A DNA stretch of 63,866 nt, the filler included, from Reclinomonas americana ATCC 50394 (Eukaryota): NCBI GenBank assembly GCA_048213135.1. It is 10 parts of 10 records of this genome, joined end to end, with 100 filler letters (N's around TTAATTAATTAA, not from the genome) between each part and the next. Parts side by side here need not be neighbours in the genome. Positions count along the whole stretch, not along the records: positions 42,694 to 54,143 come from AFZH01022046.1; positions 54,244 to 55,564 come from AFZH01022047.1; positions 55,665 to 61,543 come from AFZH01022048.1; 7 more parts are not named here. One strand, written 5' to 3'. Shown here one piece after another: positions 38,701-63,421 of this stretch (positions are counted from its first letter, which is position 1; every line of letters starts with the position of its first letter). Below the pieces are notes generated by a model. That model made no database searches. It saw nothing but the letters and a program-made list of their open reading frames with translations, and was not told the origin of the DNA. The position numbers and the translations under genes are program-made.

Positions 38701-39569
38701 GAAAAGGAGTTGCTGCGGAGAGTTGCGTGCTGATTCTAGAGTGTGCATCATCATCTTTCATCGACTCAAAAATCTTCGTCGTCGTCGCAGGAGCAAGAGT
38801 TTGAGAAGCTGGTCACGGACTTTGCAGTGCGCACTGTTCCGCTGGGCGCCGATCGACACAACCGCCAGTACTACCTGTTCACGGCCAGTGAGCACGAGCA
38901 GCGGCTGTGGGTGGAGGACACCAAGGTGCAGCACGAGCTGTCGAACGAGAAGGGTCGGATCGAAGAGCTGCCGCTGGTGGTGGTGCGTCACGCCGCCGGC
39001 AGGCTAACGCAGCAGCAGCTCTTGCAGCACCAGCACCAGGAGAAGCGCGAGCAGGAACAGCAGCAGCAACAGCAGCAGCAGGGAGAACAAGCGGGCGATG
39101 GCGGCGACGACATGCTGGCCGGTGTGTCTGTTGTGGCGTCGCAGGAGGCCATTGCGGCTGCTACGGCGGCTGCGACGGCCGCACACGAGGCACGCAACTC
39201 GGCTCCGAATCCCTGGTCGTACTACACGAACGAGACCGACGTGGAGCGTCTCATCGCCTTCCTCGACGAACGCGGTGTGCAGGAGCGCAAGCTGAAAGCC
39301 AGTCTGAAGAAATACGAGACGCGTATTGTGGCGGTACGTGTTTACTGTGCGAAAAGGGAGAGCAAGGGAGAGAGCACGGTGTCTCACGATCGTCGACTGC
39401 GCAGGGACTGCGACAACGCCGGGAGGAGATCGAGAACGGCAGCTCGCCGCGATCCACACGTCGAGCGGCGGCAGGCGGCAGCGGCAGTGATGGCGGTCCA
39501 CTGTACATCAATCAGGCAGTGCAGGTGGCTGTGGCGGGCCGAACACGGCGAGCCACGCGGCGACGATGA
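35707..39569 (+). CDS. DDT-WHIM1-WSD chromatin-remodelling subunit (BAZ1/ACF1-like), 5' partial
   Basis: DDT: DMLMVWDFCQTFG|DPIKLSPFSLNMFEEVL. WHIM1: GYPSLTVRERLDILAVLC. WSD: VRTVPLGADRHNRQYYLF...WSYYTNETDVERLIAFLDERGVQERKL. Confidence 0.85.
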
Positions 39570-39667
39570 GGGCTTCTACGTTAGAGAGGGGTGAGGGTGA
39601 AGGAGGGAAATTGGGTAAAACTGTCCTGCGTCCGCGATGAAGGCACGCGTTGGTGTTTCCGAGACGA

Positions 39668-42423: not shown

Positions 42424-42693
42424 GATGGTTTTAGAAGAGGAGAAGTGGCAGCAGCAGAGAAGGAAAATGTTTTAAGCATAAAGAGACTAAGAAGAACTGT
42501 TTATCACTTGGAGGGGAAACAGGGAAAGACATCGAGCATTTCGATATCGGAGAGGCCTCAACCTGCACTGTGACGAGCAACAAGGCTTCAGAANNNNNNN
42601 NNNNNNNNNNNNNNNNNNNNNNNNNNNNNNNNNNNNNTTAATTAATTAANNNNNNNNNNNNNNNNNNNNNNNNNNNNNNNNNNNNNNNNNNNN

Positions 42694-45600: not shown

Positions 45601-47790
45601 TTCACCCGCCTTCCCTCTTCACCTCCCTTCCCTCTTCACCAGCCTTCCCTCTTCACCCCCTTTCCTCTTCACCCCCTTTCCTCTTCACCCGCCTTCCCTC
45701 TTCCCCTTTTAACCCTCCCTCTTCACCACGCAACGATTGTCCCCGCCTGGTTGGCCACCACCGACGACGTCTGCACCAGCATACCCGAGGTAACACGAAT
45801 GTCGCTGTTCGACACCGCCTTGTACGTCGCCCCTGGAGTGGTTGCCACACAGAACGTGGCATGTACCGACTTGGAGCTCGTGAGCTGCACCTTGAACTGT
45901 CCACAGCCGCCAGCAACAGATCCATAGAAGCATGACGACGCATCAAACACGCCGTCTTGGAAGGCCGTAATCGCAAGGGCCGCTGACGAGAGAGAAAGAG
46001 AGAGACATGCAAAGAGGGTGAGTAAAGATCTCCTCCACCGCCCGCGCAAAATCTTCTCATTCTCAGCACTCACCCGAAGCCGGACCATTGCAGTCGGATC
46101 CAGCGTCGACGACCTTGAAACGAGTACAATTCGACAGCGTGCGCGATGGCGAATGCAACACCAACGTAGTTGGCACACCGAGAGGCAACGAAGTCGGAGA
46201 AATGAAGCCGACATCGGGGTCGGTGACGGTCGTGATGGTCAATTGCACACCGAGAGGCACATACGAGCCGTCTTGGAAGCTGTGCGCAGATATTTTGTCA
46301 GTGTAGATCCGTCGCATTCTCTCTCTTATCCTTCCACTTTTCTCGTTGAACATGAAAGAAAATGACAAAAAGTCCCACTCATTCGCGCATGCAGTCTCAC
46401 ACTCTCATTTTTCCTACTGTTCCTCAGCCCTCTTGCCTCTCGCAACCGCCCTCTCATTCACATCCTCCCATGTCTCTCGCACATACGTGGCTCACTTGCA
46501 GCCTCTCACTCACTTTTCCTACTGCTCCTCAGCCCTCTTGCCTCACACAGCCGCCCTCTCATTCACATCCTCGCGTATCTCTCGCACATACGTGGCTCAC
46601 CTGCAGCCTCTCACTCTCATTGGCCTACTGTTCCTCAGCCCTCTTGACGCTCGCAACCGCGCTCTTGTTCACATCCTCGCATATCTCTCGCACATACGTG
46701 GCTCACCTGCAGCCTCTCACTCACTTTCCCTACTGTTCCTCAGCCCTCTTGCCTCTCGCAACCGCCCTCTCATTCACATCCTACCATTTCTCTCGCACAC
46801 ACAGATGATCTACTTTGTGTCTCACCTGCCTCTCCCGCTTTCCTTCATCCCAACTCTCCCGGCACCACTGCTTTGTTCTTTCTGCCTCACACCATACACT
46901 CTCACGCCCTTTCTCTATCACCATTTCCCTCGCCCATATCTCTCTCAACGGTACTGCTCTCTCTCCCCTGTCTCTCTGTCTTCACCGTCGTTCCTCCCTT
47001 TCCCCTTCCCCCCCCCCTCCCTCTCTCTTTTTCCTCCCTTCCCTCTTTCCCTCCGTAACACACCGACCACATATTTGATACGTGCCAGGTGGATCCAGCG
47101 TACATGAGGCGAGAGAGACCGCAGAAATGGTGGAAACCGTGGCCGTAATACGCGTCGGCGACACCGCAGTGACCACAAAGGCAGCCGCCCGCAAGTCCAT
47201 CGACGAACAGTCGGTGGCGAGTGACAGGAAGAATGCCAGTGGCGTGCCGCCAGGTGTGACTGGATTACTGCCACTGGCAGCGCTGCAGCCAGCAACGGGA
47301 AGTCACCACTCGACAGGACCACAGTTTGCGACTTGATGCCCTGGGATATGGAAGGCACGGAAGTTGCTCTTGACACGATCTGCATGGTCGCCTCGTTAGG
47401 TAAACATGACAGCATAACATCTCCAGCAGGAACGCAACAAATGGATACAGACGCCAGGCCAAAGTAGCCTGCCAGATCAGTGGACGACAGGCACAACTGC
47501 TGCTTGGTTGGTGTTGTCTCTCCAGTCGTGTCGAATGTCCATGTGATGGTATAGGTCGTGCCATCAGATGCGATGTTGAAGCCGCTGATGATCGTGGCCA
47601 CATTCCCGCGGCAGTCGGCGTTCTTGAACAGTGTGAATGACGGCGTGGCAAAGGGGAACGAGGCCACTGGCACCGTCAACACCACTACTTGTCCGGACAA
47701 ACCGACGCGAAGACCGATTGTGCTCGATGTTGTTGCGCCAGTGACTACAGAAAGATGCAGGAGAATGAGAAGGATGATGGATGTGAGCAT
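42694..47790 (-). CDS. Large secreted/surface protein with Cys-containing beta-rich repeats; apparent frameshift; 3' partial
   Basis: Signal peptide MLTSIILLILLHLSVVTG. Exons at about 47790-47070, 46303-46072, 45983-45730 and 43630-42694, separated by long repeat-rich introns. The frame changes near 47290. Confidence 0.55.
44225..45180. repeat. Degenerate ~115-nt tandem repeat in an intron
   Basis: The unit ccacacacac...ccaatgcattctcatccacac...cccttcccac.tctga.gatcct recurs at about 44231, 44345 and 44461, then decays. Confidence 0.6.
45420..45730. repeat. Polypyrimidine minisatellite (cccttccctctt[c/t]acc)n
   Basis: A 16-18-nt unit is repeated many times; the tract is nearly pure C/T on the + strand. 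Confidence 0.85.
46395..46798. repeat. ~105-nt tandem repeat, about 3.7 copies, intronic
   Basis: The unit start cctactg.tcctcagccctcttg...cacatacgtggctcac.tgcagcctctcactc occurs at about 46413, 46518, 46624 and 46729 (last copy truncated). Confidence 0.85.
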
Positions 47791-48977
47791 GACATGCTGG
47801 GTGACCCGTACCAACAGTGGTCGTGTTGCCGATTGTCACCGTGTATGACGACACGACGGTTGGGATTGAAAATGTTGGCACCGGCACTGCCGACACACAA
47901 CAAGCACATGAGCAACTCATTTTGATCTCTGCACTCTTCGCACTCTCCACTCGTACTCACAGACGGTAAGTTGGCCACCGGCAACGGCAGTAAACGATCC
48001 GACGCCACCAAATTGAATGCTGTAATACACAGAGTGAGTGAATGGAATACGCTGACTCAAGCTCGCTTCTCGCAGAGAGTAAGAGAAAGGAAAACGAGCT
48101 TTTGACGCAAAGAAACCACCGAAGACGACCAAGAATGCTCATTCAATCGATGCAAATGTCTACAGTCTACAAAGTCCATCCACGGGGCTCCATTCTAATG
48201 TAATCTCGTACATCTCGCTCAACACACATGCTTTCATTCTAAGTGTCTCTCTGGCCACATGACGCATCTTACAATTGCAACTCACTCATTCTGCTCACCG
48301 TTGCTTCCCCATTCCTCCTCCCTTCACCTCCTTTTTATCCCTGCCGGCTGATCTCTCTCACTCTCTCGCCCTTGCTCACAAACTCACATATACACACACA
48401 GTCACACTGCACAAGCTCTCGCACACGGAAAACAACCGCACATTCTCATTGGTCCCAGTTTCAATTCTCTCCATCTCACCTCTAACCTCCTCTCTTCTCT
48501 TCGTTCTTCCCCTCTCCTTTCTCTTACATTCCTTTATCTCCTGTCATCTTTCCACTCATCCCCCCTCTCAAACATTCTCCTCTTTTCCTCTCTTCACTTC
48601 TAGATCTCCTTCTCTTCTCCTTCCTTCCCTTCTTCTTCTCTTCTCCTCCCGTCTCTTCCCCTTTTTCCCTTCACCCATTTCCCTTCTTCCCTGCCTTCCC
48701 GCCTCCTCCCGTCTCCGACCGTCTCCTCCCGTCTCCTCCCGTCCCCTCCCCACATACAGCAATTGCAAACAGGCTGTGCAGCGCATCGTCAGATCACTGA
48801 GATTTCCTCTGACAGAGAAAGTAAGCAACGAGTGGATTGCCTCGTGATGGTCAATCAACACACACGGCATACAACTCGAGGGCGAGCATAACATGTATGT
48901 TCCTACATCTGGTACGACCTCATCGCAAACAAGCTGGTTTACATTCGAAGGTTCATACACGCTCGCAGTTATGCTCA

Positions 48978-51900
48978 TCACATAATTAAATCGGTGAAAT
49001 CAGGCAGGAAGGAGCCGATGATGCGCTCGAGCATCTCTTCACGATGAGGCACAAGCATTATATACTTTCCAAGTGGAACAACGCGCTGGCCGTCGGGTGT
49101 CACTGCAAATGCGGATGCCCAACTCAAGCGACCTTTCAGTCGGTGCACCTCCTCGCCACATGCCACCGACCACACCCGTACAGTCTTGTCCCAACTGCCA
49201 CTCACAATGTGCTGGCCATCGGGTGTCACTGCAACTGCATGCACCGAATCCGTGTGGCCTTCCAGACGGCGCACCTCCTCGCCACTTGCCACCGACCACA
49301 CCCGTACAGTCTTGTCCCAACTGCCACTCACAATGTGCTGGTCATCGGGTGTCACTGCAACTGCATGCACCGAATCCGTGTGGCCTTCCAGTCGGCGCAC
49401 CTCCTCGCCATTTGCCACCGACCACACTCGTACAATCATGTCCAAACTGCCACTCACGATGTGCTGTCCGATGGGTGTCACTGCTACTGCCCACACCCCA
49501 CCAGAGTGACCTTCTAGTCGGCGCACCTCCTCGCCACTTGCCACCGACCACACCCGTACAGTCTTGTCTCCACTGGCACTCACAATATACTGGCCATCGG
49601 GTGTCACTGCCACTGCACTTACCCAATCCGTGTGACCTTCCAGTCGGCGCATCTCCTTGCCACTTGCCACCGACCACACTCGTACAGTCTTGTCCCTACT
49701 GCCACTCACAATGTGCCGACCATCGGGTGTCACTGCCACTGCATTCACCGACTCCGTGTGGCCTTCCAGTCGTCGCACTTCCTCGCCACTTGCCAATGAC
49801 CACACCCGTACAGTCTCGTCCCCACTGCCGCTCACAATGTGCTGGCCATCGGGTGTCACTGCCACTGCCCGTACACAATCAGTGTGGCCTTCCAGCCGGC
49901 GCACCTCCTCGCCACTTGCCACCGACCACACCCGCACAGTGCTGTCACCACTGCCACTCACAATGTTCTGCCCATCGAGTGTCACTGCCACTGCCCGCAC
50001 CCAATTCGTGTGGCCCTCCAGTCGGCGCACCTCCTCGCCACTTGCAAGTGACCACATCCGTACAGTCCTGTCCCCACCGCCACTCACTATATGCTGGCCA
50101 TCGGGTGTCACTGCCACTGCATGTACCTCATCCGTGTGGCCTTCCAGTCGGCGCACCTCCTCGCCGCTTGCCACCGACCACACCCGTACAGTCTTGTCAG
50201 AACTGCCACTTACAATGTGCTGGCCATCGGGTGTCACTGCCACAGCATTCACTGACACTGTGTGGCCTTCCAGTCGGCGCACCTCCTCGCCACTTGCCAG
50301 TGACCACACCCGTACAGTCTCATCCTCACTGCCACTCGCAATATACTGGCAATCGGGTGTCACTGTCACTGCATACACAGCACCCGTGTGGCCTTCCAGT
50401 CGGCGCACCTCCTCGCCACTTGCCACAGACCACACTCCAACAGTCTCGTCCCAACTGCCACTCACAATGTGCTGGCCATCGGGTGTCACTGTCACTGCCA
50501 ACACCCAACCCGTGTGGCCTTCCAGTCGGCGCACCTCCTCGCCACTTGCCACAGACCACACCCGTACAGTCTCGTCCCAACTGCCACTCGCAATATACTG
50601 GCAATCGGGTGTCACTGTCACTGCAAGCACCCCACTCGTGTGGCCTTCCAGTCGGCGCACCTCCTCGCCACTCGCTAGCGACCATATCCGCACAGTCTTG
50701 TCCTCACTGCCACTCACGATGTGCTGCCCATCGGGTGTCACTGCCACTGCATGTACCTCATCCGTGTGGCCTTCCAGTCGACGAACTTCCTCGCCACTCG
50801 CCAGTGACCACACGCGTACAGTCTCGTCCCCACTGCCGCTCACAATGTGCTGGCCATCGGGTGTCACTGCCACTGCACGCACCGCACCAGTGTGCCCCTC
50901 CATCGGCTTCCTCGGCCACTTAACTCCCGTCATATCCGCCCCCCTGAAATCCGCCTCCCTCGCATACGCCATGCACACATTCACCCCTCGCATATCCGCT
51001 CCCCTCCACACCGTCCTGTGCATCACCGCATCCCTCAAATCCGCCCCCCTCACTCGCACACCCGACAGATCCCGCCCACTGAACGACACTTGTGCCACAC
51101 ACAACACCGTCGCTGCATTTGCCGCGGCCGTCACCAACCGCTCCTCATCCAACTCCCGCGATAACTCAATCACCTCCCACAGTCTTGCTTGCAACCGAGT
51201 AGATCGTCGCACCACCTCGGCCATCTGTTCCACCAACGATGGTCGATCATTCAGCAGTCGCACACCCAACACATGCTGCTGCACATCTTGCATCGTCAGT
51301 TTCCTCTCCTCATCCCACGTCTCCCACGCAAACACATGCCGTGCCACACAATGCTCCAGCAACGACAGATGCACGAATCCCCACTGGGTCGTCCCATATC
51401 GTCGCACAATCGGACAACACACTCGCACATGCTGATTCGTGTGCCCAAGGAACTTGTCAAACGGTCCCTCTTCCACTCGTCGCAAGGCAAGTGGAGCGCC
51501 GCCAAATTCAGCAATGTCCTCTTCGAATGCACACTCCTCAGACATCGCCCGCACCACATTCCTCTCGTGCATCACACGTGCCAGGCCCTCACAGAATGCC
51601 AGACACGTCTCCTCACTCGGCACACGCTCCGTACCAAGACGCGTCTGCCTCTCCTGCTCCCTCGCAATCCACTGTCGAATGAATCGGTCAAACACATCAC
51701 ACCGAGTCGGTCGCTGCACACCACTAGCCACCAACTGCGGCAACACGTGAGCCACCACCGACAGCATGAATGGATTCGACACCAGTGCATCCAATCCATG
51801 CACACTCTTCAGTGCACGAATGTTCTCCTCAGCAGTCGACCAACGCACATCACCGTCGTCACAATCGCCATCCATATGCGCCAGGCGCTCAAAGTACTCC

Positions 51901-53762
51901 TCAATCTGTTCCATATTGAACGGTGCAATGTGTCGCTCCATCAGCTGCTGCATGCACAACTGTCCTCGTACATCCACTGGTGCAAAGTACCGTCGATACT
52001 GCGTCACGCCACCCAGTGCCGTCAGTGCGTAATCGCCTCGACAGGTTATAATCACCTTCACATCGCGACACACGTCCAACTGATTCTTGACAAACAGATT
52101 CACACCACGGTACAACTCATCGTACCCGTCAAGCAGCAACAGCAGTGGTTCCTCCCTCAATCGTCGCACATCCGACTCGCTGAATCCAAACTCGGGTGAC
52201 AGTCGCTCCAATGCCTCCTCCAACAATCGCTCATCGGCATTGCGCAGAGCACCAAGCGGCACACGCACAGGCACTCGTCTGCTTTCTCTCGTCTGCCACT
52301 GGCACCATGCTCGCTCGGCCAGCACCGACATGGTGGTGGTTTTACCGGCGCCACTGTTGCCGAACAGCACCAGCACACGCTGCGCGGTGTTGGCGTCCGA
52401 GCGGAAAACATCCACCTCCGTCAACAGATCGGTAATCTTGTCACTCGAAGAGACGTCACGCTCACGTGAACACAGCAGTGGTACATACATCTGCATGTCC
52501 TTGCGCACACTCTCGTCGTGCTGGTAGAACGATAGCTCACGCACAGCCAGTCGATGTAGTCGCTCCTCGAATGTGTCCACAATGTGTCGAGCGTGTCGTG
52601 CCTCGCTGATACGAGCAGAATATCGAGCACGCTCGTCCACCGTCAACTGCAGTCGAGAGAGGATGGAGAGGAAGACACCACCATCACCAAGGTACCGCTG
52701 TACAGTGCCATCAGAATGCACAAATGACCCGTGCGCCAATCCCTTTCTCACATCGTTCAGCTCCCCGACAGCTTTCCGTTCATCAGCATCGTCAATCAGC
52801 AGCAGCTTGCGACCGTCACCCTCAACAAAGCCACCAAACAGCATGATGGAAGAAAGTGCCGTTGTGTCGAAACCGTCACACGGAGGGTCGAAAGATGGGT
52901 CGGCATCGAACGCAGCACGCCAGGCCAACGCCACCGGCTGCTTCTCCTCGAACAACTTGACTCGTCCAGGATGCAGTGGAGCATGTCGCTCACGCCACGC
53001 CTTCACTGCCTTCGCATCCATGCCAGCCGGCGTGAAACTCGGCACCCACGCCCGCACATCAAAGTCGGAATGATCGCGACTGAACTGCGCCAGTGCGCAT
53101 CGACAGCGCAGACGCACGGCTTCCTCCACTATCTCGAAGGTCATGTTAATGCGCTGCGAGTTGATCAGGCTGCGCGTACACACAAACACAATCAGCACAG
53201 ACTCATTCCGATTGAAGAATAGGAAAGGAGAGAGAAAAGGTGACAAAGGCAAGCAAACAAACCGAGTCATTCGCTCCGAGTTGCTGTGTGAAGACATGAG
53301 AGTGAGATGCATGCTCTACAGAGAGATGAATCAAACACACAAACACACACACCTTGCATCCGCACTACCACTCCCTCCAGTCGACAGCAGCGCCAAGCCA
53401 TGCGTCACACGGACGACGAGGTGTGTGGATGAGTTGATGCCGATTGACTTGAGCTTCAAAATGCTTGCATCCTCCAAGTCATACGGCACTGGCTTCTCAA
53501 CTCCCACAATCTCCATCTCCCCATCTCCACTCTTCTTACGCAGCAATCGTGTGGCCTCGCGCAGCAAGTCCGCGAAAGTGGACATGCCCGACATGCCCTC
53601 CACCACCACCGACAGCGATGAATCATGCGCCGCACTAACATTCACAGAGAACTGTTCGCAGACAAGAAGCAGTGAGCGACAAGCAATGAGAGAGAGAGGG
53701 AGGGGGGGGGAAGCAAGCGAACAACAAGCGTCCCCCACTCTATCAATACAACTCACCGACAT
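48978..53762 (-). CDS. NLR-like STAND protein, copy 1: Ubl-like - HEPN - NACHT - pentapeptide - WD40 (14 full + 1 partial repeat)
   Basis: Exons 53757-53762, 53353-53651, 53263-53283 and 48978-53169 splice in frame. Walker A GNSGAGKTT, Walker B LLLLDGYDE, VRKGLAH, pentapeptides (GRDLSGVRVRGADLRDA) and 42-aa WD repeats. Confidence 0.9.
49080..50900 (-). repeat. 126-nt WD40-coding tandem array, copy 1
   Basis: Near-identical units GHTxxVxAVAVTPDGQHIVSGSxDxTVRVWSVASGEEVRRLE. Confidence 0.95.
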
Positions 53763-54080
53763 CTTCTCGTCGCAGTTCTTTGTTTCTTTTCTCGATCGTC
53801 AGCAGGATGCACCTTGTTGCACACACGTCTCACACACAGTTGGCTTGTTCTCGTGGCGGTGTACGTTGTGCTGTGCGTGTGCGTGAGATCAATGTCATGC
53901 GGGACATCCGACGTATCTTTCTTTCTGCAGCACGCCCGTGTTTGATGGCCACCTGCTGTGACACGTGCCATGGATGAGTGAGGAAGGGAGTGCGGGGTGT
54001 GAGCGAAAGAGGGACGCGGGAGGCTAAGGACGCATGTTCGACTCGTTGTTGCATGAAGGTGTGTGTGTGTGTTTGTGCGG

Positions 54081-54125
<45 letters not shown>

Positions 54126-54979
54126 AGAGAGAGAGAGAGCGAGNNNNNNNNNNNNNNNNNNNNNNNNNNNNNNNNNNNNNNNNNNNNTTAATTAATTAAN
54201 NNNNNNNNNNNNNNNNNNNNNNNNNNNNNNNNNNNNNNNNNNNTTCTTCGAGAGTGTGCATTGATCGCAGAAATGATTCCTTCTCTCTCCTCCCTCTCTC
54301 TCTCTCGCCTCTCTTCTTTTTCCTCTGAGTGAACATTGTTGCGCGTGTACATATGTGTGTGCTTCTCGTTGATCTGCCTATGTGTGCGCGCGCTGCATTC
54401 TGGATGTGAGTGATTTCTGCGTCACATTCTCGCGCTCTCTGCTCTCTCCTCTCTCTTTTCACCCTCGAGCTCCTCTGAGTGAGGATCGTCTCTCACACGC
54501 ATGTATGCGTGTCATTGATTTGTGTGAGTGTACCACATGTGTGACGTGATTGATCAACACCCTCTCTTCTCTTCTCTTCTTTCGCTCTCTTTTCTTCCTT
54601 GTTAGAGTGCTCATCATCTCGCGTGTGCGTACTTGTCTGTGTACCTTGTGCGAATCGCATCCGTGGTGTGAATCACTCACATCGCCCTATTCTTCTTACT
54701 CCCCTCACCTCCCGTGGTTCGTGCGTACTTGCTGCTTATCCTCCTCGCATCCATTCTCATTCACTCACATTATCCTCTCATCCTGCTCTTTCCGCATACT
54801 TGTGCCTCTCTCTCCTTTTTGCCTGTCCTCTTACATTGTTTTCACACTGTATCCATGTCTTCATTTCCCGTGTGTGCCTCTCTGTCCTGATCCTACTCTC
54901 TCTCCTCCCACCCACACACACATCATTTGTTCATCGTCCCTCTCCACTCTCCTCTATCTCTCTCTCCTTCTCTCTCTCG

Positions 54980-55450
54980 TACTCGCCCCTTCTTCCTCCC
55001 TCCCTTCGTCTTGCATCTCCGTCTCTGATCACCATTGTGCCACACATGCTTGTCGCGCTGAGCAGCTCTCTGGCAGGCTTGTTCTTACAGGGGTCCCTCT
55101 CTCTCACTCCGTTCTCCGTCTCTTTTCACCTCATTTGTGACTCTACCTGAACACGCACACGTGCTTCTCCTTCTCCACCCTCTCCTCTCTCGCTCTCTCT
55201 CTCTCCCTCTCCACTGTCACCCTCCATCCATTTGCATCCCTTTCTGCGTACTCGCCCCTTCTGCCTTCCCTCCCTTCGTCTTGCATCTCCGTCTCTGCGA
55301 ATCACCATTGCCACACACATGCTTGTCACGCTGAGCAGCTCTCTGTCGGGCTCACTCACACTCCTCTCTCCGTCTCTTTTCACCTCATTTGTGATATTGC
55401 CTGAACACGCACACGTGCTTCTCCTTCTCCACCCTCTCCTCTCTCGCTCT
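54980..55450. repeat. Local imperfect duplication in a TC-rich non-coding contig
   Basis: cttcgtcttgcatctccgtctctg...caccattg.cacacatgcttgtc.cgctgagcagctctct and cctgaacacgcacacgtgcttctccttctccaccctctcctctctcgctct each occur twice. Confidence 0.7.
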
Positions 55451-55675
55451 CCACACTCCTTCTTCCTCATCTTTTTTTCTTTCCTCCGTCATTTTCGAGT
55501 GCTTGCTGTCGCGTGTATGCATGTGTACGTGCCGTTGATTCGTCTCTTTCTGTTACGCCTTTATNNNNNNNNNNNNNNNNNNNNNNNNNNNNNNNNNNNN
55601 NNNNNNNNTTAATTAATTAANNNNNNNNNNNNNNNNNNNNNNNNNNNNNNNNNNNNNNNNNNNNTTTCTTCTTCT

Positions 55676-55716
<41 letters not shown>

Positions 55717-55735
55717 TCTCTCCTCTTCTCTCTCG

Positions 55736-55779
<44 letters not shown>

Positions 55780-56944
55780 GGTCATGCAACGCCGGTTGCA
55801 GTTTGAGCATGACCACGCTTGCAATATGCTCGATCATGCCACCATGTGACTGGTGTACTTGACCGATCGCATGGCACGGCCGCCTGCATGTGTTGTCACA
55901 TGCGCACCATTCAGTTGAGCACCGGCGTCTCGGAACTGTCGCAGCTCGCATGAACACGCGTCATCGTGACAGTGGCTTGTCTGTGAATGTTATCTGAGTG
56001 TGATTCTGTGTCTGTCACTCGTTGTGTTCCTGCGTTTTGAGTCTCCTTTGCCTCTCATTGTGGAGGATACATGAAATGGATGAGTAAACAGACTGCACAT
56101 TTATGTGGCGCAGTCGTTGAATCCCGCAGACATTCAATGCCGCTTCTATTCCTTGCGTTCGAGATCATGCATCAACGACAGAGGCTCACAATACACTACT
56201 CACAGTTTCATCTCGCGCAAAGAACAACGGCGCGGCACAGCAAGTCAAACGACATCCGCGCCGCGAAATCATAACGCGCGATTCCCATCAGCCACTGCAC
56301 GCACACTCGTCAGGATCCGGTGACAACTCTTGTATCATCTCCTCCCAGTACATTATAATTACGACGCGGCTGTCTGAAGAACGCGTTCCCATCAAATGCA
56401 TACATGATATACAGATGTCGCAACGCAGCAGAATGAATGCGTAGTGATGAAGATAGTTTGCTTGGCAACAACGACCTCTGTAACATTCGCCAAGGCCCTA
56501 TTTTCTTGTCATGTCCGAAAACACATATATGGGCCCCTGGTGACCGGGTGACGGGTTGAGCGACGGAGCAAGGGTCAAGGGTAACGGGGTAGAGAACAAC
56601 TAGAGAGTCACACTACAAGGGTATCAAAAGATAAGGGTGGGGGGGGGGGGGGGGCGGTAACACCTCCGTGGTGTCGAGGGGGAGCTGGATCAATGGTCAC
56701 CTTCCTCGGCGACAGATGCAGGTAGAGGCGACAGCAAACAGGCTGCGTCGTACATCGTCAGATCGCTGAGGCTTCTTCTAACAGAGAACGTGGGCAACGA
56801 GTGGATTACCTCGTGATGGTCAATCAACACACACTGCATACAACTTGAGGGCAAAGGTTACAAGCGTGTTCACATCCCATGAGACCAAATTGCAAACAAG
56901 CTGGTTTACATTCGAGGGCTTATGCACGCTCGCAGTTGCGCTCA

Positions 56945-59900
56945 TCACCGAACGACATCGGTGAAATCAGGCAGAAAGGAGCCAAGGATGCGCTCGAGCA
57001 GTCCTTCACGAGGGCGCACAGGTAGAATATCCTTCACACGTGGAATAATGTGCTGGTCGTAGGGTGTCACTGCCACTGCAGACACCCCACTCGTGTGGCC
57101 AAATAGTCGGCGCACCTCCTCACCACTTGCCAGCGACCACACCCGCACAGTCTTGTCCTGACTGCCACTCACAATTTGCTGGCCATCGGGTGTCACTGCC
57201 ACTGCACGCACTTCTCCCGTATGACCTTCCAGTCGGCGCACCTCCTCACCACTTGCCACCGACCACACACGTACAGTCATGTCATGACTGCCACTCACAA
57301 TGTGCTGGCCATTGGGTGTCACTGCCAATGCACACACCCAATTCGTGTGGCCTTCCAGTCGGTGCACCTCCTCGCCAGTTACCGCCGACCACACCCGTAC
57401 AGTCTTGTCCGCACTGCCACTTACAATGTGCTGGCCATCGGGTGTCACTGCCACAGCACGCACCACACTCGTGTGACCTTCCAGTCGGCGCACCTCCTCG
57501 CCACTTGCAAGTGACCACACCCGTGCAGTCTTGTCCCGACTGCCACTCACTATGTGCTGGCCATCGGGTGTCACTGCCACTGCACGCACCTCTTTCGTGT
57601 GGCCTACAAGTCGACGCACCTCTTCGCCACTTGCCACCAACCACACCCGTACAGTCTTGTCACGACTGCCACTCACAATGTGCTGGCCATCGGGTGTCAC
57701 TGTCACTGCAGTCGCCACCCATGTGTGGCCCTTCAGTCGGCGCACCTCCTCACCACTTGCCACCGACCACACCCGTATGTTATTGTCCCGACTGCCACTC
57801 ACAATGTGCTGGCCATCGGGTGTCACTGCCACCGTCATTACCCTATCCGCGTGACCTTCCAGTCGGCGCACCTCCCCGCCACTTGCCAGTGACCACACCC
57901 GTGCAGTCTTGTCTGCACTGCCACTCACGATGTGCTGGCCATCGGGTGTCACCGCCACTGCACGCACCGCATCCGTATGGCCTTCCAGTCGGCGCATCTC
58001 CTCGCCAATTGCCACAGACCACACCCGTACAGTCTTATCCTGACTGCCACTCACAATGTGCTGGCCATCGAATGTCACTGCCACTGCAGATACCCCACTC
58101 GTGTGACCCACCAGTCGGCGCACCTCTTCGCAGCTTGCCAGTGACCACACTCGAAGAGTATTGTCGTAACTTCCACTCACAATGAGTTGACCATCGGGTG
58201 TCACTGCAACTGCACACACCTCTCTCGTATGGCCAACCATTGGCTTTCTGGGCCACTTCACTCCCGCCACATCAGCTCCTCTGAACTCCGCCTCTCTCGC
58301 ATACACCATGCACAAATTCACTCCTCTCAAATCCGCCCCCCTCCACACCGTCCTGTGCATCACCGCATCCCTCAAATCCGCACCCCTCACTCGCACACGC
58401 GACAGATCTCGCCCACTGAACGACACTTGCGCCACACATAACACCGTTGCTGCATTCGCGGCTGCCGTCACCACTCGCTCCTCATCCACCTCCCGAGAGA
58501 TCTCAATCACCTCCCACAATCTCGCTTGCAATCGAGGAGACCGTCGCACCACCTCGGCCATCTGCTCCACCAACGATGGTCTGTCGTTCAGCAATCGCAC
58601 CGCCAGCACATGCTGTTGCACATCTTCCGTCGTCATCCTTCTCTCCTCATCCCACGTCTCCCAGGCAAACACATGCCGTGCCACACAGTGCTCCAGCACC
58701 GACAGATGCACGAAACCCCACTGCGTCGTCCCATACCGTCGAACAATCGGACAGCACACTCGCACATGCTGGTTCTTGTGCCCGAGGAACTTGTCAAATG
58801 GTCCCTCTTCCACTCGTCGACGCATGGCGAGTGGCGCACCACCAAACTCGGCAATGTCCTCCTCAAATGCACGTTCCTCTGACACCGCTCGCACTACATT
58901 CCTCTCGTACATCAACCGTGCCAGTCCCTCACAGAACGAGAGACACGTTTCCTCACTCGGCACACGCTCCACACCGACACGCGTCTGTCTCTCCTGCTCC
59001 CTCACAATCCACTGTCGAATGAATCGGTCAAACACATCACACCGAGTCGGTCGTTGCACACCACTCGCCACCAACTGCGGCAGCACGCGAGCCACCACCG
59101 CCAGCAGGAACGGATTCGACACTAGTGCATCCAGTCCATGCACACTCTTCAATGCACGAATGTACTCCTCGGCAGTTGACCATCGCACTCCGCCGTCGTA
59201 ATCATCATCACAATCCACTTGCACCACTCGCTCAAAGTACTCTTCAATCTGCTCGTTGTTGAACGGTGTAATGTGTCGCTCCACGAGATGCTGCATGCAC
59301 AACTGTCCTCGCGCATCCACCGGTGCAAAGTACCGTCGATACTGTGTCACACCACCAAGTGCCGTCAGTGCGTAATCCTCCCGACAGGTGATAATCACCT
59401 TCACATCGCGGCACACATCCAGCTGGTTCTTGACAAACAAATTCACACCACGGTACAACTCATCGTACCCGTCAAGCAGCAACAACAGTGGCTCCTCTTT
59501 CAACCGACGCACGTCAGACTCCAATCCCAACTCGGGCGACAGTCGCTCCAGTGCCTCCTCCAACAGTCGCTCATCGGCATTGCGGAGAGCACCAAGAGGC
59601 ACACGCACAGGCACTCGTCTGCTCTCTCCAGTCTGCCACTGTCGCCATGCTCGCTCTGCCAGTACCGACATGGTGGTGGTCTTGCCTGCTCCACTGTTGC
59701 CAAACAGCATCAGCACACGCTGGGTGGTGTTGGCGTCGGAGAGGAAAGCATCCACCTCCGTCAACAGATCCGCCATCTTGTCTCTCGCGGAGACATCGCG
59801 CTCACGTGAGCACAGCAGTGGCACATACATCTGCATGTCCTTGCGCACACTCTCGTCGTGCTGGTAGAACGAGAGCTCACGCACCGCCAGTCGATGCAGT

Positions 59901-61097
59901 CGTTCCTCGAATGTGTCCACAATATGTCGAGCGTGACGTGCCTCACAGATGCGAGCGAAGAATCGAGCACGCTCGTCGGCCGTCAGCTGCAGTCGTGAGA
60001 GAATGGAGAGGAAAACACCGCCGTCACCAAGGTACAGCTGCACAGTGGCATCGGTCAGCACGAGGTCCTTGTGCGCCAACCCCTTTCTCACATCATTCAG
60101 CTCCTCCACCGCCTTCCGTTCATCAGCATCGTCAACCAGCAGAAGCTTGCGACCGTCGTCCAGAACAAAGCCACCATACAGCATAATGGAGGCAAGTGCC
60201 GTCGTGTCGAAACCGTCACAAGAAGGATCGGACGACGGGTCGGCGTCGAATGACGCACGCCAGGTTAACAAGTGCGGCTGAGCCTCCTTGAATATTCTAA
60301 CCTGCCATCCCTTGATTGGCGCATGTCGCTCACGCCACGGTTTCATGACAACGGGTTGCATTTGTGGAGACCACAGGTCCACTGCCCACGCTCGCACATC
60401 AAAGTCGGCATGATCGCGACTGAACTTCGCCAGTGCGCGTTGGCAGCGCAGACGCACGGCCTCCTCCACCACCTCAAAGGCCATGTTGATGCGCTGCGAG
60501 TTTATCATGCTGTATGTGCACACAAACGCAGTCAGCACACACTCGCGGCGAGAAAAGATCACAGAAGAGGAGGGAGGAAGATGACGAAAGTAAGCAATAC
60601 AAACCGAGTCATGCGCTCCGAGTTGCTATGCGGGGACACGAGAGTGAGCAACAAGTTCTGCACAGAGGATGACTCACTAAAACACACACCTTCCACTCTC
60701 ACTCCCACTCCCTCCACTCGACTGCAGCGCCACACCAAGCGTCACACGGACGACGAGATGAGTGGATGCGTAAATGTTGATGCCGAGTCCAGCAAGCGGC
60801 ACGCCAGAAGCAAGATTGATGTCGAAAGGCAGTGGCTTCTCCACCCCCACAATCTCCATCCCCGCATCTCCGCTCTTCTCACGCAGCAAGCGTGTGGCCT
60901 CGCGCAGCAAGTCCGCCAGAGTGGACATGGCCGACATGCCCTCCACCACCACCGACAGCGACGAATCATGCGCCGCACTCACATTCACAGAAAACTGTTA
61001 CACACACAACAGTCAGCGATAAGCAATGAGAGAGAAGACAGAGGGAAGCAAGCGAACAACAAGCGTCCCCCATTCAATCAATACAACTCACCGACAT
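56945..61097 (-). CDS. NLR-like STAND protein, copy 2: Ubl-like - HEPN - NACHT - pentapeptide - WD40 (9 full + 1 partial repeat)
   Basis: Same four-exon structure as copy 1 (microexon 60605-60625; last exon 56945-60509). Same Walker A and B motifs and VRKGLAH. Confidence 0.9.
57055..58240 (-). repeat. 126-nt WD40-coding tandem array, copy 2
   Basis: Same 42-aa unit as copy 1, with different residues at the variable positions. Confidence 0.95.
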
Positions 61098-61417
61098 CTT
61101 CTCGTCGCAGTTCTTTGTTTCTTTTCTCGCTCTTCAGCACGATGTGCCTCGTTGCACACACGTCACACACACAGTCGGCTTGTTCTCGTGGCGGTGTACG
61201 TTGGTGGATCTTGCTGTGTGCTATGCTATGCTATGCGTGTGAGGTCGTCAATGTCACGCAGGACAGCCGACGTATCTATCTTTCTGCAGCACGCCCGTGT
61301 TTTGATGGTCACCTGCTGTGCCGCATGTCATGAATGAGTGAGGCAGAGAGTGTGGGGTGTGAGAGAATGCGCGAGCGAGGGAGAGAGGGACTCGAGTTCG
61401 ATTCGTTGTTGCATGAA

Positions 61418-61450
<33 letters not shown>

Positions 61451-61451
61451 G

Positions 61452-61495
<44 letters not shown>

Positions 61496-61643
61496 GCGAG
61501 AGAGCGAGAGAGAGAGAGAGAGAGTACTCTCGTGAGTGTGTGGNNNNNNNNNNNNNNNNNNNNNNNNNNNNNNNNNNNNNNNNNNNNTTAATTAATTAAN
61601 NNNNNNNNNNNNNNNNNNNNNNNNNNNNNNNNNNNNNNNNNNN

Positions 61644-62765: not shown

Positions 62766-63421
62766 NNNNNNNNNNNNNNNNNNNNNNNNNNNNNNNNNNN
62801 NNNNNNNNNTTAATTAATTAANNNNNNNNNNNNNNNNNNNNNNNNNNNNNNNNNNNNNNNNNNNNCGTGGCAGTGGAAGCTTCGACGCCAGTGGATCCGG
62901 AAGCTTCAACAATACGAATCCGTTTTTGCAATTGCCACAAGTGCACAATCGCCGGCATTCCGTGGCATGCCAACTTTTTTTCTCGTGCACCTGCTCACTT
63001 GAGGCGCCGACTACGATGCAGCTCCGAAAGCGCGGGCCCGCAGTCGGACCCAATATCAATGCACTCCGGATCCGATCGCGATCACAATCGCCGCTTTGCA
63101 TTCGTTTCCCAATCCCATCTTCACATCGCGCAGAGCACTACTCAAATAGCCTGCATGATCACTTCATCGCGATCACCCGAAGAATCCTCTAAGACAAGGT
63201 GGTCACGACAATCCATCGATCGAGCGTGTGCATTGTTTGTCACATTGTGCATCAGTCAGAGAGCGCGCATTCACACTGCCTATCATGGCCTCTGCGTTGC
63301 GTCCTCTTTGCCTCTTTGCCTCTCTGTCTGTGTTTGCGCGCGCGCGAGAGAGTGTGTGTCTGTTGCACACGACATGCCTCACTCACTGTCTCTCTTTTCT
63401 CTCTCTCTCTCTCTCTCTCAG

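What the first reader, a model, noticed from the sequence alone, without database searches (positions are those of the whole stretch)
48978..61097. Duplicated Ubl-HEPN-NACHT-pentapeptide-WD40 receptors: candidate protist NLR immune system with a built-in RNase effector
Seen: both genes carry a roughly 170-aa helical domain upstream of an intact NACHT P-loop. It contains FDTTALxSIM followed by AVxELNDVRKGLAH, an R-x4-H motif (52731-52748 and 60071-60088). Known: R-x4-H preceded by a D-x-x-x-L helix is the HEPN RNase signature (Swt1/DZIP3-like clades); HEPN domains act as dimers; STAND-WD40 proteins such as fungal HET-E oligomerise on ligand sensing. Inference: ligand binding by the WD40 propellers drives NACHT oligomerisation and activates RNA cleavage, giving abortive defence or allorecognition analogous to bacterial Avs/bNACHT systems. 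I do not recognise this full domain combination as characterised. The usual Asn after the Arg is Lys here, so activity needs testing.
Basis: partly seen in the sequence, partly recalled or inferred. Interest (0 to 1): 0.9.

Follow-up and report, generated by a model that had tools for sequence, protein, structure and literature searches.

The report
Two NLR-like genes, HEPN head unproven
Two copies of a eukaryotic NACHT-pentapeptide-WD40 receptor gene are real, and their sensor repeats vary exactly where fungal self/non-self receptors vary, but the idea that their front end is an RNA-cutting HEPN domain rests only on weak, below-threshold similarities.

Summary
NACHT (38 and 37.3 bits, cut-off 26.7), pentapeptide repeats and 14 and 9 WD40 units are confirmed.

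The WD40 units are exactly 42 aa and 76-80% alike. They vary mainly at two pairs of positions flanking conserved residues, as in fungal HET-E/NWD receptors. The NLR-like receptor reading is therefore well supported.

The HEPN call is not established.
- R-x4-H alone arises in 3613 of 10000 shuffles.
- The domain has no relatives in 1.84 billion representatives.
- AlphaFold failed twice, pLDDT 36.6 and 38.1.

Weak hints favour HEPN. Pfam HEPN_Swt1 is the top hit in 7 of 8 constructs, but at E 0.05-0.17. Relatives P0006 and P0007, on the same chassis, carry a DZIP3-HEPN-like head with matching motifs.

A rival similarity has the best single statistic but holds in one paralogue only. It matches the pre-NACHT/P-loop segment of kinase-type relatives (BLAST E 5e-4).

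HEPN-NACHT fusions are already described in animals and bacteria. Ubl, "protist" and tandem adjacency are unverified.

The parts
48978..53169 (-). Gene A main exon (stop codon 48978-48980): N-terminal domain, pre-NACHT helices, NACHT, helical/WH region, pentapeptide repeats, WD40 array
   Evidence: Open frame. AG acceptor ends at 53170. Pfam hits.
53353..53651 (-).
   Evidence: Open frame with GT/AG borders, conserved in gene B with an in-frame 6-nt indel; dN/dS 0.61. No Pfam or NCBIfam family. No RNA evidence.
53757..53762 (-). Gene A inferred micro-exon ATGTCG followed by GTGAGT
   Evidence: The same arrangement is found in gene B.
52641..53168 (-). Gene A orphan N-terminal domain (residues 1-176 of the main exon), the candidate HEPN
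   Evidence: No relatives found. Top Pfam hit is sub-threshold PF18731. AF2 pLDDT 36.6 and 38.1.
52842..52871 (-). FDTTALSSIM motif (gene A residues 100-109)
   Evidence: Aligns to FDITSLNAIM in P0006 and YDMTTLDKLF in P0007.
52731..52748 (-). RKGLAH, the R-x4-H motif (gene A residues 141-146)
   Evidence: Invariant between the paralogues. A chance motif in 36% of shuffles.
52416..52640 (-). Gene A pre-NACHT helical linker with the YVP motif (residues 177-251), shared with all four chassis relatives
   Evidence: Alignment A2 has invariant L175, R203, Y228 and P230. dN/dS 0.12.
51885..52379 (-). Gene A NACHT NTPase domain (Walker A 52338-52361, Walker B 52116-52145)
   Evidence: PF05729 E 1.8e-9, 38 bits, cut-off 26.7. 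Motif coordinates.
50898..51128 (-). Gene A pentapeptide-repeat segment
   Evidence: PF00805 E 3.5e-7, 30.1 bits, cut-off 20.2. Start coordinate.
49134..50897 (-). Gene A WD40 array: 14 units of exactly 42 aa, plus a truncated 15th downstream
   Evidence: PF00400 with 14 stretches. TRF period 126, 13.9 copies. Unit analysis.
56945..60509 (-). Gene B main exon (stop codon 56945-56947), same domain order as gene A
   Evidence: NACHT 3.2e-9 and pentapeptide 9.9e-6.
60690..60994 (-). Gene B inferred exon 2 (101 codons + 2 nt)
   Evidence: No Pfam family.
61092..61097 (-). Gene B inferred micro-exon ATGTCG
59981..60508 (-). Gene B orphan N-terminal domain (residues 1-176)
   Evidence: 77% identical to gene A over 251 aa. 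PF18731 top hit at E 0.053-0.11.
60071..60088 (-). RKGLAH motif in gene B
60182..60211 (-). FDTTALASIM motif in gene B
59459..59701 (-). Gene B Walker A (59678-59701) to Walker B (59459-59488)
57101..58234 (-). Gene B WD40 array: 9 units of 42 aa, plus a truncated 10th

Best explanation
The two genes encode paralogous STAND/NLR-like receptors. Each has an optional leader from a small upstream exon, then an orphan N-terminal head of about 176 aa, a pre-NACHT helical linker, and a NACHT NTPase with intact Walker A and B. A helical/winged-helix region, a pentapeptide-repeat beta-helix and a long array of near-identical 42-aa WD40 blades follow.

Most likely mechanism:
1. The hypervariable residues on top of the WD40 propellers bind a ligand.
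2. This releases the NACHT module to exchange nucleotide and oligomerise.
3. Oligomerisation brings the N-terminal heads together.
4. The heads act as the output.

The single most likely identity of the head is a very divergent HEPN domain of the Swt1/DZIP3-like kind. If so, the heads would pair to form an RNase site around R141 and H146.

Shown here: the domain order, intact NTPase motifs, purifying selection on every part, head swapping among chassis relatives, and the HET-E-like pattern of repeat variation.

Inferred: ligand sensing, oligomerisation, the HEPN identity, and any RNase activity. The residue after the Arg is Lys, not the usual N/D/H.

My confidence is about 0.85 for the NLR-like receptor reading. 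The 0.42 given below is for the whole statement including the HEPN head.
For: ARCHITECTURE
- NACHT scores 38 and 37.3 bits against a cut-off of 26.7. Pentapeptide scores 30.1 and 25.5 bits against 20.2. WD40 gives 14 and 9 stretches.
- Walker A and B are intact.
- dN/dS is 0.12 for NACHT through pentapeptide and 0.34 for the head, with dS about 0.4.

SENSOR
- There are 14 and 9 units of exactly 42 aa, with mean pairwise identity 0.80 and 0.76.
- Positions 4, 5, 7, 23 and 25 carry 9, 8, 10, 10 and 6 different residues among 23 units. No other position carries more than 5.
- Pairs (5,7) and (23,25) flank conserved V6 and D24 and lie 18 residues apart. Codons (7,9) and (25,27) do the same around 8 and 26 in HET-E/NWD, where they map to the top of the propeller (PMC1805685 passages).

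EFFECTOR POSITION
- The nearest NACHT relatives carry a Ser/Thr kinase (P0004, P0005) or another head (P0006, P0007) on the same NACHT-pentapeptide-WD40 chassis.
- L001 carries ARM repeats.

HEPN HINTS
- PF18731 HEPN_Swt1 is the top Pfam hit in 7 of 8 head constructs of the two paralogues (1 of 2 full 251-aa constructs, 6 of 6 shorter ones). E is 0.053-0.17 and the score 12.7-14.2 bits.
- The hit always aligns residues 129-155 to profile positions 74-100 of 115, spanning RKGLAH.
- The head of P0006 gives PF18738 HEPN_DZIP3 as its only Pfam hit (E 0.025).
- Language-model features of the P0006 and P0007 heads are nearest to HEPN_DZIP3 clusters (0.89 with 177 shared features; 0.92 with 185 shared features and 14 hits).
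- BLAST, MAFFT and hhalign all align query residues 99-153 with P0006 256-305, matching FD.T.L and R....AH.
- The combined pattern arises in 4 of 10000 shuffles. A stricter version of the pattern matched 0 of 3501 ORFs from 80 loci. The pattern was chosen after seeing the sequences.
- In both low-confidence models the motif ends a long helix (127-146 and 127-144). HEPN motifs sit at the end of helix 3 (PMC3710099 section 7).
- The segment that diverges most between the paralogues (residues 41-97) sits where P0006 and P0007 carry 160-300-aa inserts.
Against: - No HEPN profile reaches its cut-off.
- The 251-aa construct of gene A gave no HEPN hit at all.
- The P0007 head gave none either.
- Hits of equal E-value to plainly unrelated families occur: TRAP_TAXI 0.061, PHAX_RNA-bd 0.15, Phe_tRNA-synt_N 0.13.
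- The region was picked for its R-x4-H, which biases it towards HEPN models.
- The link from the query to P0006/P0007 is not significant. Profile HMMs against shuffles gave 137 and 21 of 2000 forward, 137 and 273 of 2000 reverse, and 492 and 64 of 5000 with longer models. hhalign gave E 0.3 and probability 0.2.
- A competing alignment overlaps the same residues. Gene A residues 72-133 match the pre-NACHT linker plus Walker A strand of P0004 (BLAST E 5.4e-4) and P0005 (E 0.032). Only 3 of 5000 shuffles reach that score.
- The residue after the Arg is Lys, not N/D/H (PMC3710099 section 6).
- The fold is untested because both AF2 models are unusable.
- No RNA evidence for the gene model was found.
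Confidence: 0.42

Rival explanations
1. The genes are NLR-like receptors, but the head is a lineage-specific domain unrelated to HEPN: a novel effector or an adaptor that recruits something else. On this reading R-x4-H and FD.T.L are coincidences.
For: - There are no relatives in 5.8 billion clusters, 1.84 billion representatives or PDB sequences.
- Every HEPN signal is below threshold.
- R.{4}H is expected by chance in 36% of shuffles.
- Equally weak hits to unrelated families occur.
- NLR N-termini are known to be very diverse (PMC4986451 abstract and passages).
Against: - The only family that recurs as the top Pfam hit in both paralogues is a HEPN family, and it lies over the motif.
- The only chassis relatives with a non-kinase head show DZIP3-HEPN-like features and the same two motifs in the same order.
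Confidence: 0.3
2. Residues about 72-140 of the head are a decayed copy of the pre-NACHT linker, first strand and P-loop. The copy would have come from internal duplication or from recombination with a kinase-type paralogue. On this reading DDADERKA is a dead Walker A, and RKGLAH sits in the helix that follows it. The head is then a remnant or regulatory piece, not an RNase.
For: - BLASTP aligns gene A residues 72-133 with P0004 341-405 at 27.7 bits, E 5.4e-4. It aligns residues 72-139 with P0005 347-419 at E 0.032.
- hhalign gives the same alignment at E 0.2.
- A P0004+P0005 profile reaches a score matched by 0 of 2000 and 3 of 5000 shuffles.
- The predicted helix 127-146 would fit the helix after a P-loop.
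Against: - Gene B shows no such match (2141 of 5000 shuffles reach its score, and its top BLAST HSPs lie elsewhere), although it is about 86% identical there. That is what a lucky chance match predicts.
- The signal vanishes when P0006 and P0007 are added to the profile (64 and 564 of 2000).
- The head does not resemble the gene's own pre-NACHT and P-loop (E 7.8).
- It does not resemble those of 80 further NACHT loci (best E 0.86).
- No NACHT or AAA Pfam hit falls in the head.
- About eight pairwise comparisons were made, so the corrected E is about 4e-3.
Confidence: 0.13
3. The head is a true HEPN fold but is catalytically dead. It would act as an RNA-binding or protein-interaction module, as proposed for eukaryotic Swt1 and some nematode HEPN domains.
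For: - Lys replaces the usual N/D/H after the Arg (PMC3710099 section 6).
- The same paper infers inactive HEPN versions in Swt1 and in Caenorhabditis expansions (section 9).
- dN/dS of the head (0.34) is higher than that of the rest of the protein (0.12).
Against: - R141 and H146 are both kept in the two paralogues at dS about 0.33, and the motif segment has dN/dS 0.25.
- Lys is polar and could substitute. There is no direct test.
Confidence: 0.15
4. The proteins are not immune or allorecognition receptors. They would be housekeeping STAND scaffolds, like the TEP1- or NWD1-type NACHT-WD40 proteins.
For: - No functional data exist.
- No defence genes were recognised among 41 neighbouring ORFs; only WSD, RNB and WD40 hits were found.
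- PADLOC gave no hit to the head.
Against: - The repeats are highly internally conserved, and variation is focused at the same surface positions as in HET-E/NWD.
- The two paralogues differ in repeat number (14 against 9).
- Heads are swapped among relatives.
- These are the hallmarks of diversifying receptors described in PMC1805685 and PMC4986451.
Confidence: 0.1

Closest known systems
DZIP3/hRUL138-like HEPN-NACHT proteins of animals (Anantharaman et al. 2013, PMC3710099 Table 1; pearl oyster, PMC9646362)
   Same: - An N-terminal candidate HEPN sits directly upstream of a NACHT NTPase, with C-terminal repeats that can be WD40.
- The family shows lineage-specific duplication.
- The predicted logic is the same: sense, oligomerise, then RNase.
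- Rx4H is the commonest spacing in the oyster family (131 proteins; 194 of 202 carry a typical Rx4-6H motif).
   Different: - The query head does not reach any HEPN Pfam cut-off, and PF18738 was never reported for it.
- Lys follows the Arg, where Asn is typical.
- A pentapeptide-repeat segment lies between the NACHT module and the WD40 array.
- The WD40 units are highly internally conserved.
- The organism is not shown to be an animal.
- None of these animal proteins has been tested biochemically in the passages I read.
Fungal NWD / HET-E / HET-D NACHT-WD40 NLRs (PMC1805685; PMC4986451)
   Same: - NACHT plus 42-aa WD40 repeats with high internal conservation.
- Variable residue pairs flank a conserved residue, 18 positions apart.
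- Paralogues differ in repeat number.
- N-terminal effectors are swappable.
   Different: - The head is not HET, and 'HEPN' does not occur in the main text of the fungal survey (0 occurrences in PMC4986451).
- Internal identity here is 76-80%, below the 85% used there to define such repeats.
- The pentapeptide segment is absent from the fungal descriptions I read.
- Positive selection was not tested here.
Unnamed chassis relatives P0004/P0005 (kinase head) and P0006/P0007 (DZIP3-HEPN-like head) from public assemblies
   Same: - The NACHT, helical region, pentapeptide and WD40 order is homologous (E 2.8e-47 to 4.2e-18 over residues 250-700).
- The Y-[VLI]-P pre-NACHT motif is shared.
- P0006 and P0007 share FD.T.L and R....AH in the same order.
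   Different: - NACHT-region identity is 28-35% for P0004-P0006 and 26% for P0007 over the wider alignment.
- The heads are not significantly alike.
- P0006 and P0007 have RN.N.AH (Rx5H with Asn) and a 160-300-aa insert.
- Their WD40 blades are ordinary and diverged.
Bacterial NACHT (bNACHT) and Avs-type STAND defence proteins (Kibby et al., bioRxiv 10.1101/2022.07.19.500537)
   Same: - The layout is tripartite: effector, NACHT, repeat sensor.
- HEPN RNases, protein kinases, pentapeptide repeats and beta-propellers are all listed among domains fused to bacterial NACHT modules.
   Different: - The query genes are eukaryotic with inferred spliceosomal introns.
- No PADLOC model matches the head.
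- No phage context applies.

Membership tests
HEPN superfamily | Conserved Rx4-6H motif | tested here: met
   RKGLAH lies at residues 141-146 in both paralogues. This is weak evidence: R.{4}H arises in 3613 of 10000 shuffles and R.{4,6}H in 7316 of 10000.
HEPN superfamily | Polar N, D or H immediately after the Arg (typical, not absolute; PMC3710099 section 6) | tested here: not met
   Lys142 in both paralogues. P0006 and P0007 have Asn.
HEPN superfamily | Significant profile match to a HEPN family | tested here: not met
   PF18731 HEPN_Swt1 is the top hit in 7 of 8 constructs but scores only 12.7-14.2 bits against a cut-off of 27.5 (E 0.053-0.17). PF18738 was never reported for the query.
HEPN superfamily | Four-helix up-down bundle with the motif at the end of helix 3 (PMC3710099 section 7) | tested here: inconclusive
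   The two AF2 models have pLDDT 36.6 and 38.1 and no residue above 70. Both end a long helix at the motif (127-146 and 127-144), but the models are unusable for fold search.
HEPN superfamily | Upstream acidic residue, typically E-x3-[KR], in helix 2 | tested here: inconclusive
   E15-x3-R19 (VEEAVRLR) is invariant in both paralogues. Its helix assignment and proximity to the motif cannot be checked.
HEPN superfamily | Metal-independent endoRNase activity dependent on the R and H | not testable with these tools
   This needs expression and assay.
NACHT (STAND) NTPase | Pfam PF05729 above its gathering score, with Walker A GxxxxGK[ST] and Walker B hhhhDGxDE | tested here: met
   38 and 37.3 bits against 26.7. 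GNSGAGKT and LLLLLDGYDE are present in both genes.
Pentapeptide repeat | Pfam PF00805 above its gathering score | tested here: met
   30.1 and 25.5 bits against 20.2.
WD40 beta-propeller | Multiple PF00400 repeats | tested here: met
   14 stretches (E 4.1e-169) and 9 stretches (E 6.3e-112). Period 126 nt.
NLRs with highly internally conserved repeats (fungal NWD type) | Repeat units over 85% identical across at least 100 aa (PMC4986451) | tested here: not met
   Mean pairwise identity is 0.80 (gene A) and 0.76 (gene B), with maxima of 0.95 and 0.90. This is close to the published threshold but below it.
NLRs with highly internally conserved repeats (fungal NWD type) | Variation focused on two residue pairs that flank conserved residues on the propeller top (PMC1805685) | tested here: met
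   Positions 5 and 7 lie around V6, and 23 and 25 around D24, with 8, 10, 10 and 6 residue types among 23 units. The published codons are 7 and 9 around 8, and 25 and 27 around 26. Positive selection itself was not tested.
Ubiquitin-like (beta-grasp) domain | Profile or fold match for the exon-2 product | tested here: not met
   0 Pfam families and 0 NCBIfam families at E up to 10 for the gene A exon. 0 Pfam families for the gene B exon.

The most novel reading that the evidence does not exclude
A non-animal, non-fungal eukaryote runs a HET-E-like recognition system. Its sensor would diversify by shuffling near-identical WD40 blades. Its output would be a highly diverged HEPN RNase head that has drifted beyond all profile detection, with Lys after the Arg and perhaps a ubiquitin-like leader. 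That would extend HEPN-NLR immunity or allorecognition outside animals and bacteria, and would show how far an RNase effector can diverge while keeping R and H.
Probability: 0.25. Interest if true: 0.6.

Novelty: new variant of a known kind. Interest (0 to 1): 0.38.

Why it matters
If the head is a working HEPN RNase, this would be a compact eukaryotic example of the sensor-NTPase-RNase design. That design has been predicted since 2013 for animal and bacterial STAND proteins. In the papers I read (PMC3710099, PMC9646362, PMC8195603, 10.1101/2022.07.19.500537) it is inferred only from domain architecture.

The sensor part is interesting on its own. The same two residue pairs that evolve under positive selection in fungal heterokaryon-incompatibility receptors are the variable ones here. 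This suggests convergent or shared use of repeat shuffling to generate recognition diversity.

As it stands the finding is an ordinary NLR-like gene pair with an orphan head.

Tried and rejected
HOMOLOGUE SEARCHES FOR THE HEAD
- Word-indexed search over 5.8 billion clusters: 1946 candidates, none at E 0.001 or better.
- Full HMMER search over 1.84 billion representatives: 1 hit, P0003. It is a 98-aa tandem-repeat protein matched three times at 13/33 identity, which I judge spurious.
- PDB sequences: best E 0.84.
- Metagenome contigs with the head: 249 pattern matches, 0 relatives.
- Metagenome contigs with the chassis: 95 relatives, 80 kept. None encodes the head (HMM best E 0.36; motif in 0 of 3501 ORFs; BLAST best E 0.86).
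- NCBIfam and PADLOC: nothing relevant.

STRUCTURE
- AF2 with a 2-sequence and a 4-sequence alignment gave pLDDT 36.6 and 38.1. No fold search was run, because the tool states that such models give meaningless matches.
- Homodimer of residues 1-176: no answer, score 0.02 against a mark of 0.32. This is neither for nor against.

OTHER RESOURCES
- ESM Atlas on the query itself was closed.
- No whole genome is held, so paralogues could not be surveyed.
- Sequencing runs: none was listed and no RNA holder was listed.
- Earlier findings of this scan: none for this genome or sequence.
- Cluster look-up of P0004-P0007 gave no informative names.
- Rfam and tRNA scans of the window were empty.

IDEAS CONSIDERED AND DROPPED
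- Degenerate kinase. MAFFT placed the kinase catalytic loop of P0004 and P0005 under FDTTAL. However, no Pkinase Pfam hit at E up to 10 falls in any head construct.
- Recent internal duplication of the gene's own P-loop (E 7.8).

Full report
WHAT IS THERE

On the minus strand there are two long open frames, 48978-53315 and 56945-60625. Their translations are collinear.

Upstream of each lies the same arrangement. An ATGTCG is followed by GTGAGT. Next comes an AG-bounded open exon of 99 codons (gene A) or 101 codons (gene B). A second GT..AG intron follows; in gene A it carries in-frame stops. Finally there is an acceptor that joins in phase (AG|C) to the main exon.

RKGLAH lies at 52731-52748 and 60071-60088. 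FDTTAL(S/A)SIM lies at 52842-52871 and 60182-60211 (frames).

The duplicated DNA runs from about 210 nt beyond the stop codon to the scaffold linker upstream of each gene. That is 48765-54143 against 56734-61514, at about 83% identity.

dS between the copies is about 0.4, and every part is under purifying selection. dN/dS is 0.12 from the pre-NACHT linker through the pentapeptide segment, 0.34 for the head and 0.25 for the motif segment. These are diverged, constrained paralogues, not assembly duplicates.

Two caveats apply to the observation.
- The window is a scaffold with nine N44-TTAATTAATTAA-N44 linkers, and three of them lie between or next to the genes. 'Tandem' therefore depends on the scaffolding.
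- No sequencing run was listed for the region. The splice model is an inference from conservation. Exon 2 is open in both copies and has an in-frame 6-nt indel, but its dN/dS is only 0.61.

THE CHASSIS

Pfam places a NACHT domain at residues 264-428 of both main exons. The scores are 38 and 37.3 bits against a cut-off of 26.7. Pentapeptide repeats score 30.1 and 25.5 bits against 20.2. There are 14 and 9 WD40 repeats. Walker A (GNSGAGKT) and Walker B (LLLLLDGYDE) are intact.

A search with residues 250-700 found three relatives. P0004 (E 2.8e-47) and P0005 (E 1.2e-32) have a Ser/Thr kinase in front of the same NACHT-pentapeptide-WD40 chassis. P0006 (E 4.2e-18) has a different head. P0007 is a relative of P0006.

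The six sequences align from a Y-[VLI]-P motif before the P-loop through the pentapeptide segment.

A metagenome scan with this alignment returned 95 NACHT relatives, of which 80 were kept. The best one, L001, has ARM-like repeats in front. The N-terminal position is thus a swappable head, as in NLRs generally.

THE SENSOR

The WD40 arrays consist of 14 units (gene A) and 9 units (gene B) of exactly 42 aa, each followed by a truncated unit. At the DNA level the period is 126 nt, with 85% and 81% matches.

Mean pairwise identity of the units is 0.80 and 0.76. Among the 23 units, positions 4, 5, 7, 23 and 25 carry 9, 8, 10, 10 and 6 different residues. No other position carries more than 5.

Positions 5 and 7 flank the conserved V6. 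Positions 23 and 25 flank the conserved D24. The two pairs are 18 residues apart.

Paoletti et al. (PMC1805685, passages read) found strong positive selection at codons 7, 9, 25 and 27 of the Podospora NWD/HET-E repeats, in pairs around the conserved 8 and 26, on the top face of the propeller. The pattern here is the same with an offset of two.

Dyrka et al. (PMC4986451, abstract and passages) define 'highly conserved repeats' as over 85% identical and show that they are enriched in fungal NLRs. The repeats here fall just short of that figure.

I did not test positive selection. This is still the best evidence that the genes are diversifying receptors.

THE HEAD: WHAT FAILED

The 251 residues before the NACHT domain have no detectable relatives. 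This holds in the word-indexed 5.8 billion clusters, in a full HMMER pass over 1.84 billion representatives (one spurious repeat protein), in PDB sequences and in metagenome contigs.

AlphaFold2 gave pLDDT 36.6 with the two paralogues and 38.1 with P0006 and P0007 added. A dimer job returned no answer.

R-x4-H alone means little. It appears in 3613 of 10000 shuffles of residues 1-176, and the 251 residues hold five Rx4-6H sites.

THE HEAD: HINTS FOR HEPN

1. Pfam on the query.
   - I scanned eight constructs of the two heads against Pfam at E up to 10.
   - Seven have PF18731 (Swt1-like HEPN) as their top hit. It always aligns residues 129-155 to profile positions 74-100 of 115, spanning RKGLAH.
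   - The scores are only 12.7-14.2 bits (E 0.053-0.17) against a cut-off of 27.5.
   - The eighth construct, the 251-aa form of gene A, showed no HEPN hit.

2. The heads of the relatives.
   - The P0006 head has PF18738 (DZIP3-like HEPN) as its only Pfam hit, at E 0.025, below cut-off. The P0007 head has none.
   - Protein-language-model features of both heads are nearest to clusters in which 10-38% of members carry PF18738. The scores are 0.89 with 177 shared features, and 0.92 with 185 shared features and 14 hits. The tool rates these as leads.

3. Alignment to the relatives.
   - BLAST, MAFFT (three runs) and hhalign all align query residues 99-153 with P0006 256-305.
   - This pairs FDTTALSSIML with FDITSLNAIML, and DVR-KGLAH with QRNENYAH.

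4. Secondary structure.
   - Both poor models end a long helix at the motif. HEPN motifs sit at the end of helix 3 (PMC3710099 section 7).

5. Position of the variable segment.
   - The segment that diverges most between the paralogues (residues 41-97; 49% identity; dS 1.39) lies where P0006 and P0007 have large inserts.
   - PMC3710099 reports that inserts between helices 2 and 3 are common in HEPN domains.

THE HEAD: WHY THIS IS NOT ENOUGH

The link from the query to P0006 and P0007 is not significant.
- Pairwise BLAST E is 0.05 and 0.23.
- hhalign gives E 0.3 and probability 0.2.
- Profile scores are reached by 137 and 21 of 2000 shuffles forward, by 137 and 273 of 2000 in reverse, and by 492 and 64 of 5000 with longer models.

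Hits of the same E-value to unrelated families occur (TRAP_TAXI 0.061, PHAX_RNA-bd 0.15). The region was chosen for its R-x4-H, which favours HEPN models. The residue after the Arg is Lys, whereas N, D or H is typical (PMC3710099 section 6).

There is also a competing alignment over the same residues.
- Gene A residues 72-133 align with P0004 341-405, which is its pre-NACHT linker, first strand and Walker A. AWRAAFDADPSFDPP pairs with SWRGRFQADLPYLPP, and GFVEGDGRKLLLIDDADERKA pairs with GFLDGKSKVLLILGDSGMGKS.
- The score is 27.7 bits, E 5.4e-4. The same region of P0005 gives E 0.032.
- Only 0 of 2000 and 3 of 5000 shuffles reach the corresponding profile score.

I discount it for several reasons.
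- Gene B shows nothing there, although it is about 86% identical (2141 of 5000 shuffles).
- The signal disappears with a four-sequence profile.
- The head resembles neither the gene's own P-loop region (E 7.8) nor those of 80 other loci.
- I had made about eight such comparisons.

It nevertheless shows that alignments of this strength can arise here without shared function, and that includes the HEPN one.

WEIGHING

My estimates are as follows.
- About 0.85 that these are NLR-like sensing receptors with an N-terminal output domain.
- About 0.4-0.45 that the head is a divergent HEPN. About a third of that would be an inactive version.
- About 0.3 that it is an unrelated orphan domain.
- About 0.13 that it is a decayed linker and P-loop copy.

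The steps from ligand binding to oligomerisation and induced proximity of the heads are inferred from what is known of STAND proteins. Nothing here tests them.

COMPARISON WITH WHAT IS KNOWN

HEPN heads on NACHT proteins are not new.
- Anantharaman et al. 2013 (PMC3710099; Table 1 and sections 6, 7, 9 and 16 read) list the DZIP3/hRUL138 family as fused to NACHT, TPR, LRR, Death and other domains in animals. They report expansions in Nematostella, oyster and Capsaspora. They also list CXorf38-NACHT fusions and bacterial HEPN-STAND proteins.
- The pearl oyster genome paper (PMC9646362, passages) reports more than 50 NACHT proteins with an N-terminal DZIP3-like HEPN, some with WD40 or TPR.
- Kaur et al. 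2021 (PMC8195603, passages) and Kibby et al. (bioRxiv 10.1101/2022.07.19.500537, passages) list HEPN RNases, kinases, pentapeptide repeats and propellers among the domains of bacterial and animal STAND systems.

My searches for HEPN with NACHT returned no paper reporting a biochemical test of a HEPN-NLR. The searches were made, which held 9, 2 and 31 papers. I read only listings and the passages named above. I did not try to open their supplements (only listed one file for PMC3710099), and these may bear on this claim.

What differs here:
- the head lies beyond profile detection;
- Lys follows the Arg;
- a pentapeptide segment is present;
- the WD40 repeats are HET-E-like;
- there is a possible small leader exon.

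'Protist' was not tested, because no genome is held and no taxonomic marker was found.

VERDICT

This is a real pair of NLR-like receptor genes with an orphan head. The HEPN reading is the leading hypothesis but is unproven, and the architecture class is already in print. I rate it a new variant of a known kind, of moderate interest.

Noticed in passing
window 20190-20289, 26376-26475, 29414-29513, 35607-35706, 42594-42693, 54144-54243, 55565-55664, 61544-61643, 62766-62865: Nine identical 100-nt linkers (N44 + TTAATTAATTAA + N44) join contigs. The window is a scaffold or pseudomolecule, so gene order across linkers is only as good as the scaffolding. In both paralogues the break falls in a (CT)n/(CA)n microsatellite about 380-420 nt upstream of the ATG.
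   Followed up: partly
window 52878-53048 and 60218-60388 (head residues 41-97): This segment is far more diverged between the paralogues than its flanks. Amino-acid identity is 0.49, dN 0.43 and dS 1.39, against dS 0.28-0.58 on either side. Either the flanks were homogenised by gene conversion, or this piece was replaced in one copy.
   Followed up: no
window 44000-46800 (+ strand): There is a C/T-rich stretch 3' of gene A's stop codon (GC skew -0.61). It holds diverged tandem repeats of 114, 17, 105 and 211 nt. ORFs there have no Pfam match.
   Followed up: partly
window 38740-39594 (+), 14574-15248 (-), 19155-19856 (+): Only 3 of 41 other long ORFs gave a Pfam hit. These were a WSD/DDT-type motif (E 1e-16), an RNB exoribonuclease fragment (E 2.6e-6, below cut-off) and one WD40 repeat. 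The genes appear intron-rich and were not modelled.
   Followed up: no
window 48981-49133 and 56948-57100 (C-terminal tails): Both proteins end with a truncated WD40 unit followed by a conserved tail...REEMLERIIGSFLPDFTDLIM in gene A and ...REGLLERILGSFLPDFTDVVR in gene B. Its function is unknown.
   Followed up: no
L001 1127-5653; L007 2167-5877: Metagenome relatives of the NACHT module carry other heads. L001 has ARM-like repeats (PF23948, E 5.9e-40). L007 gives a weak PIP49_N/FAM69 hit (E 6.6e-4, below cut-off).
   Followed up: partly
P0006 residues 60-256; P0007 residues 60-383: The DZIP3-HEPN-like heads of these relatives are split by inserts of about 160-300 aa between a first helix (NRFFR.SKL.LEIM..YLR.LF) and the FD.T.L helix. 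The insert was not identified.
   Followed up: no
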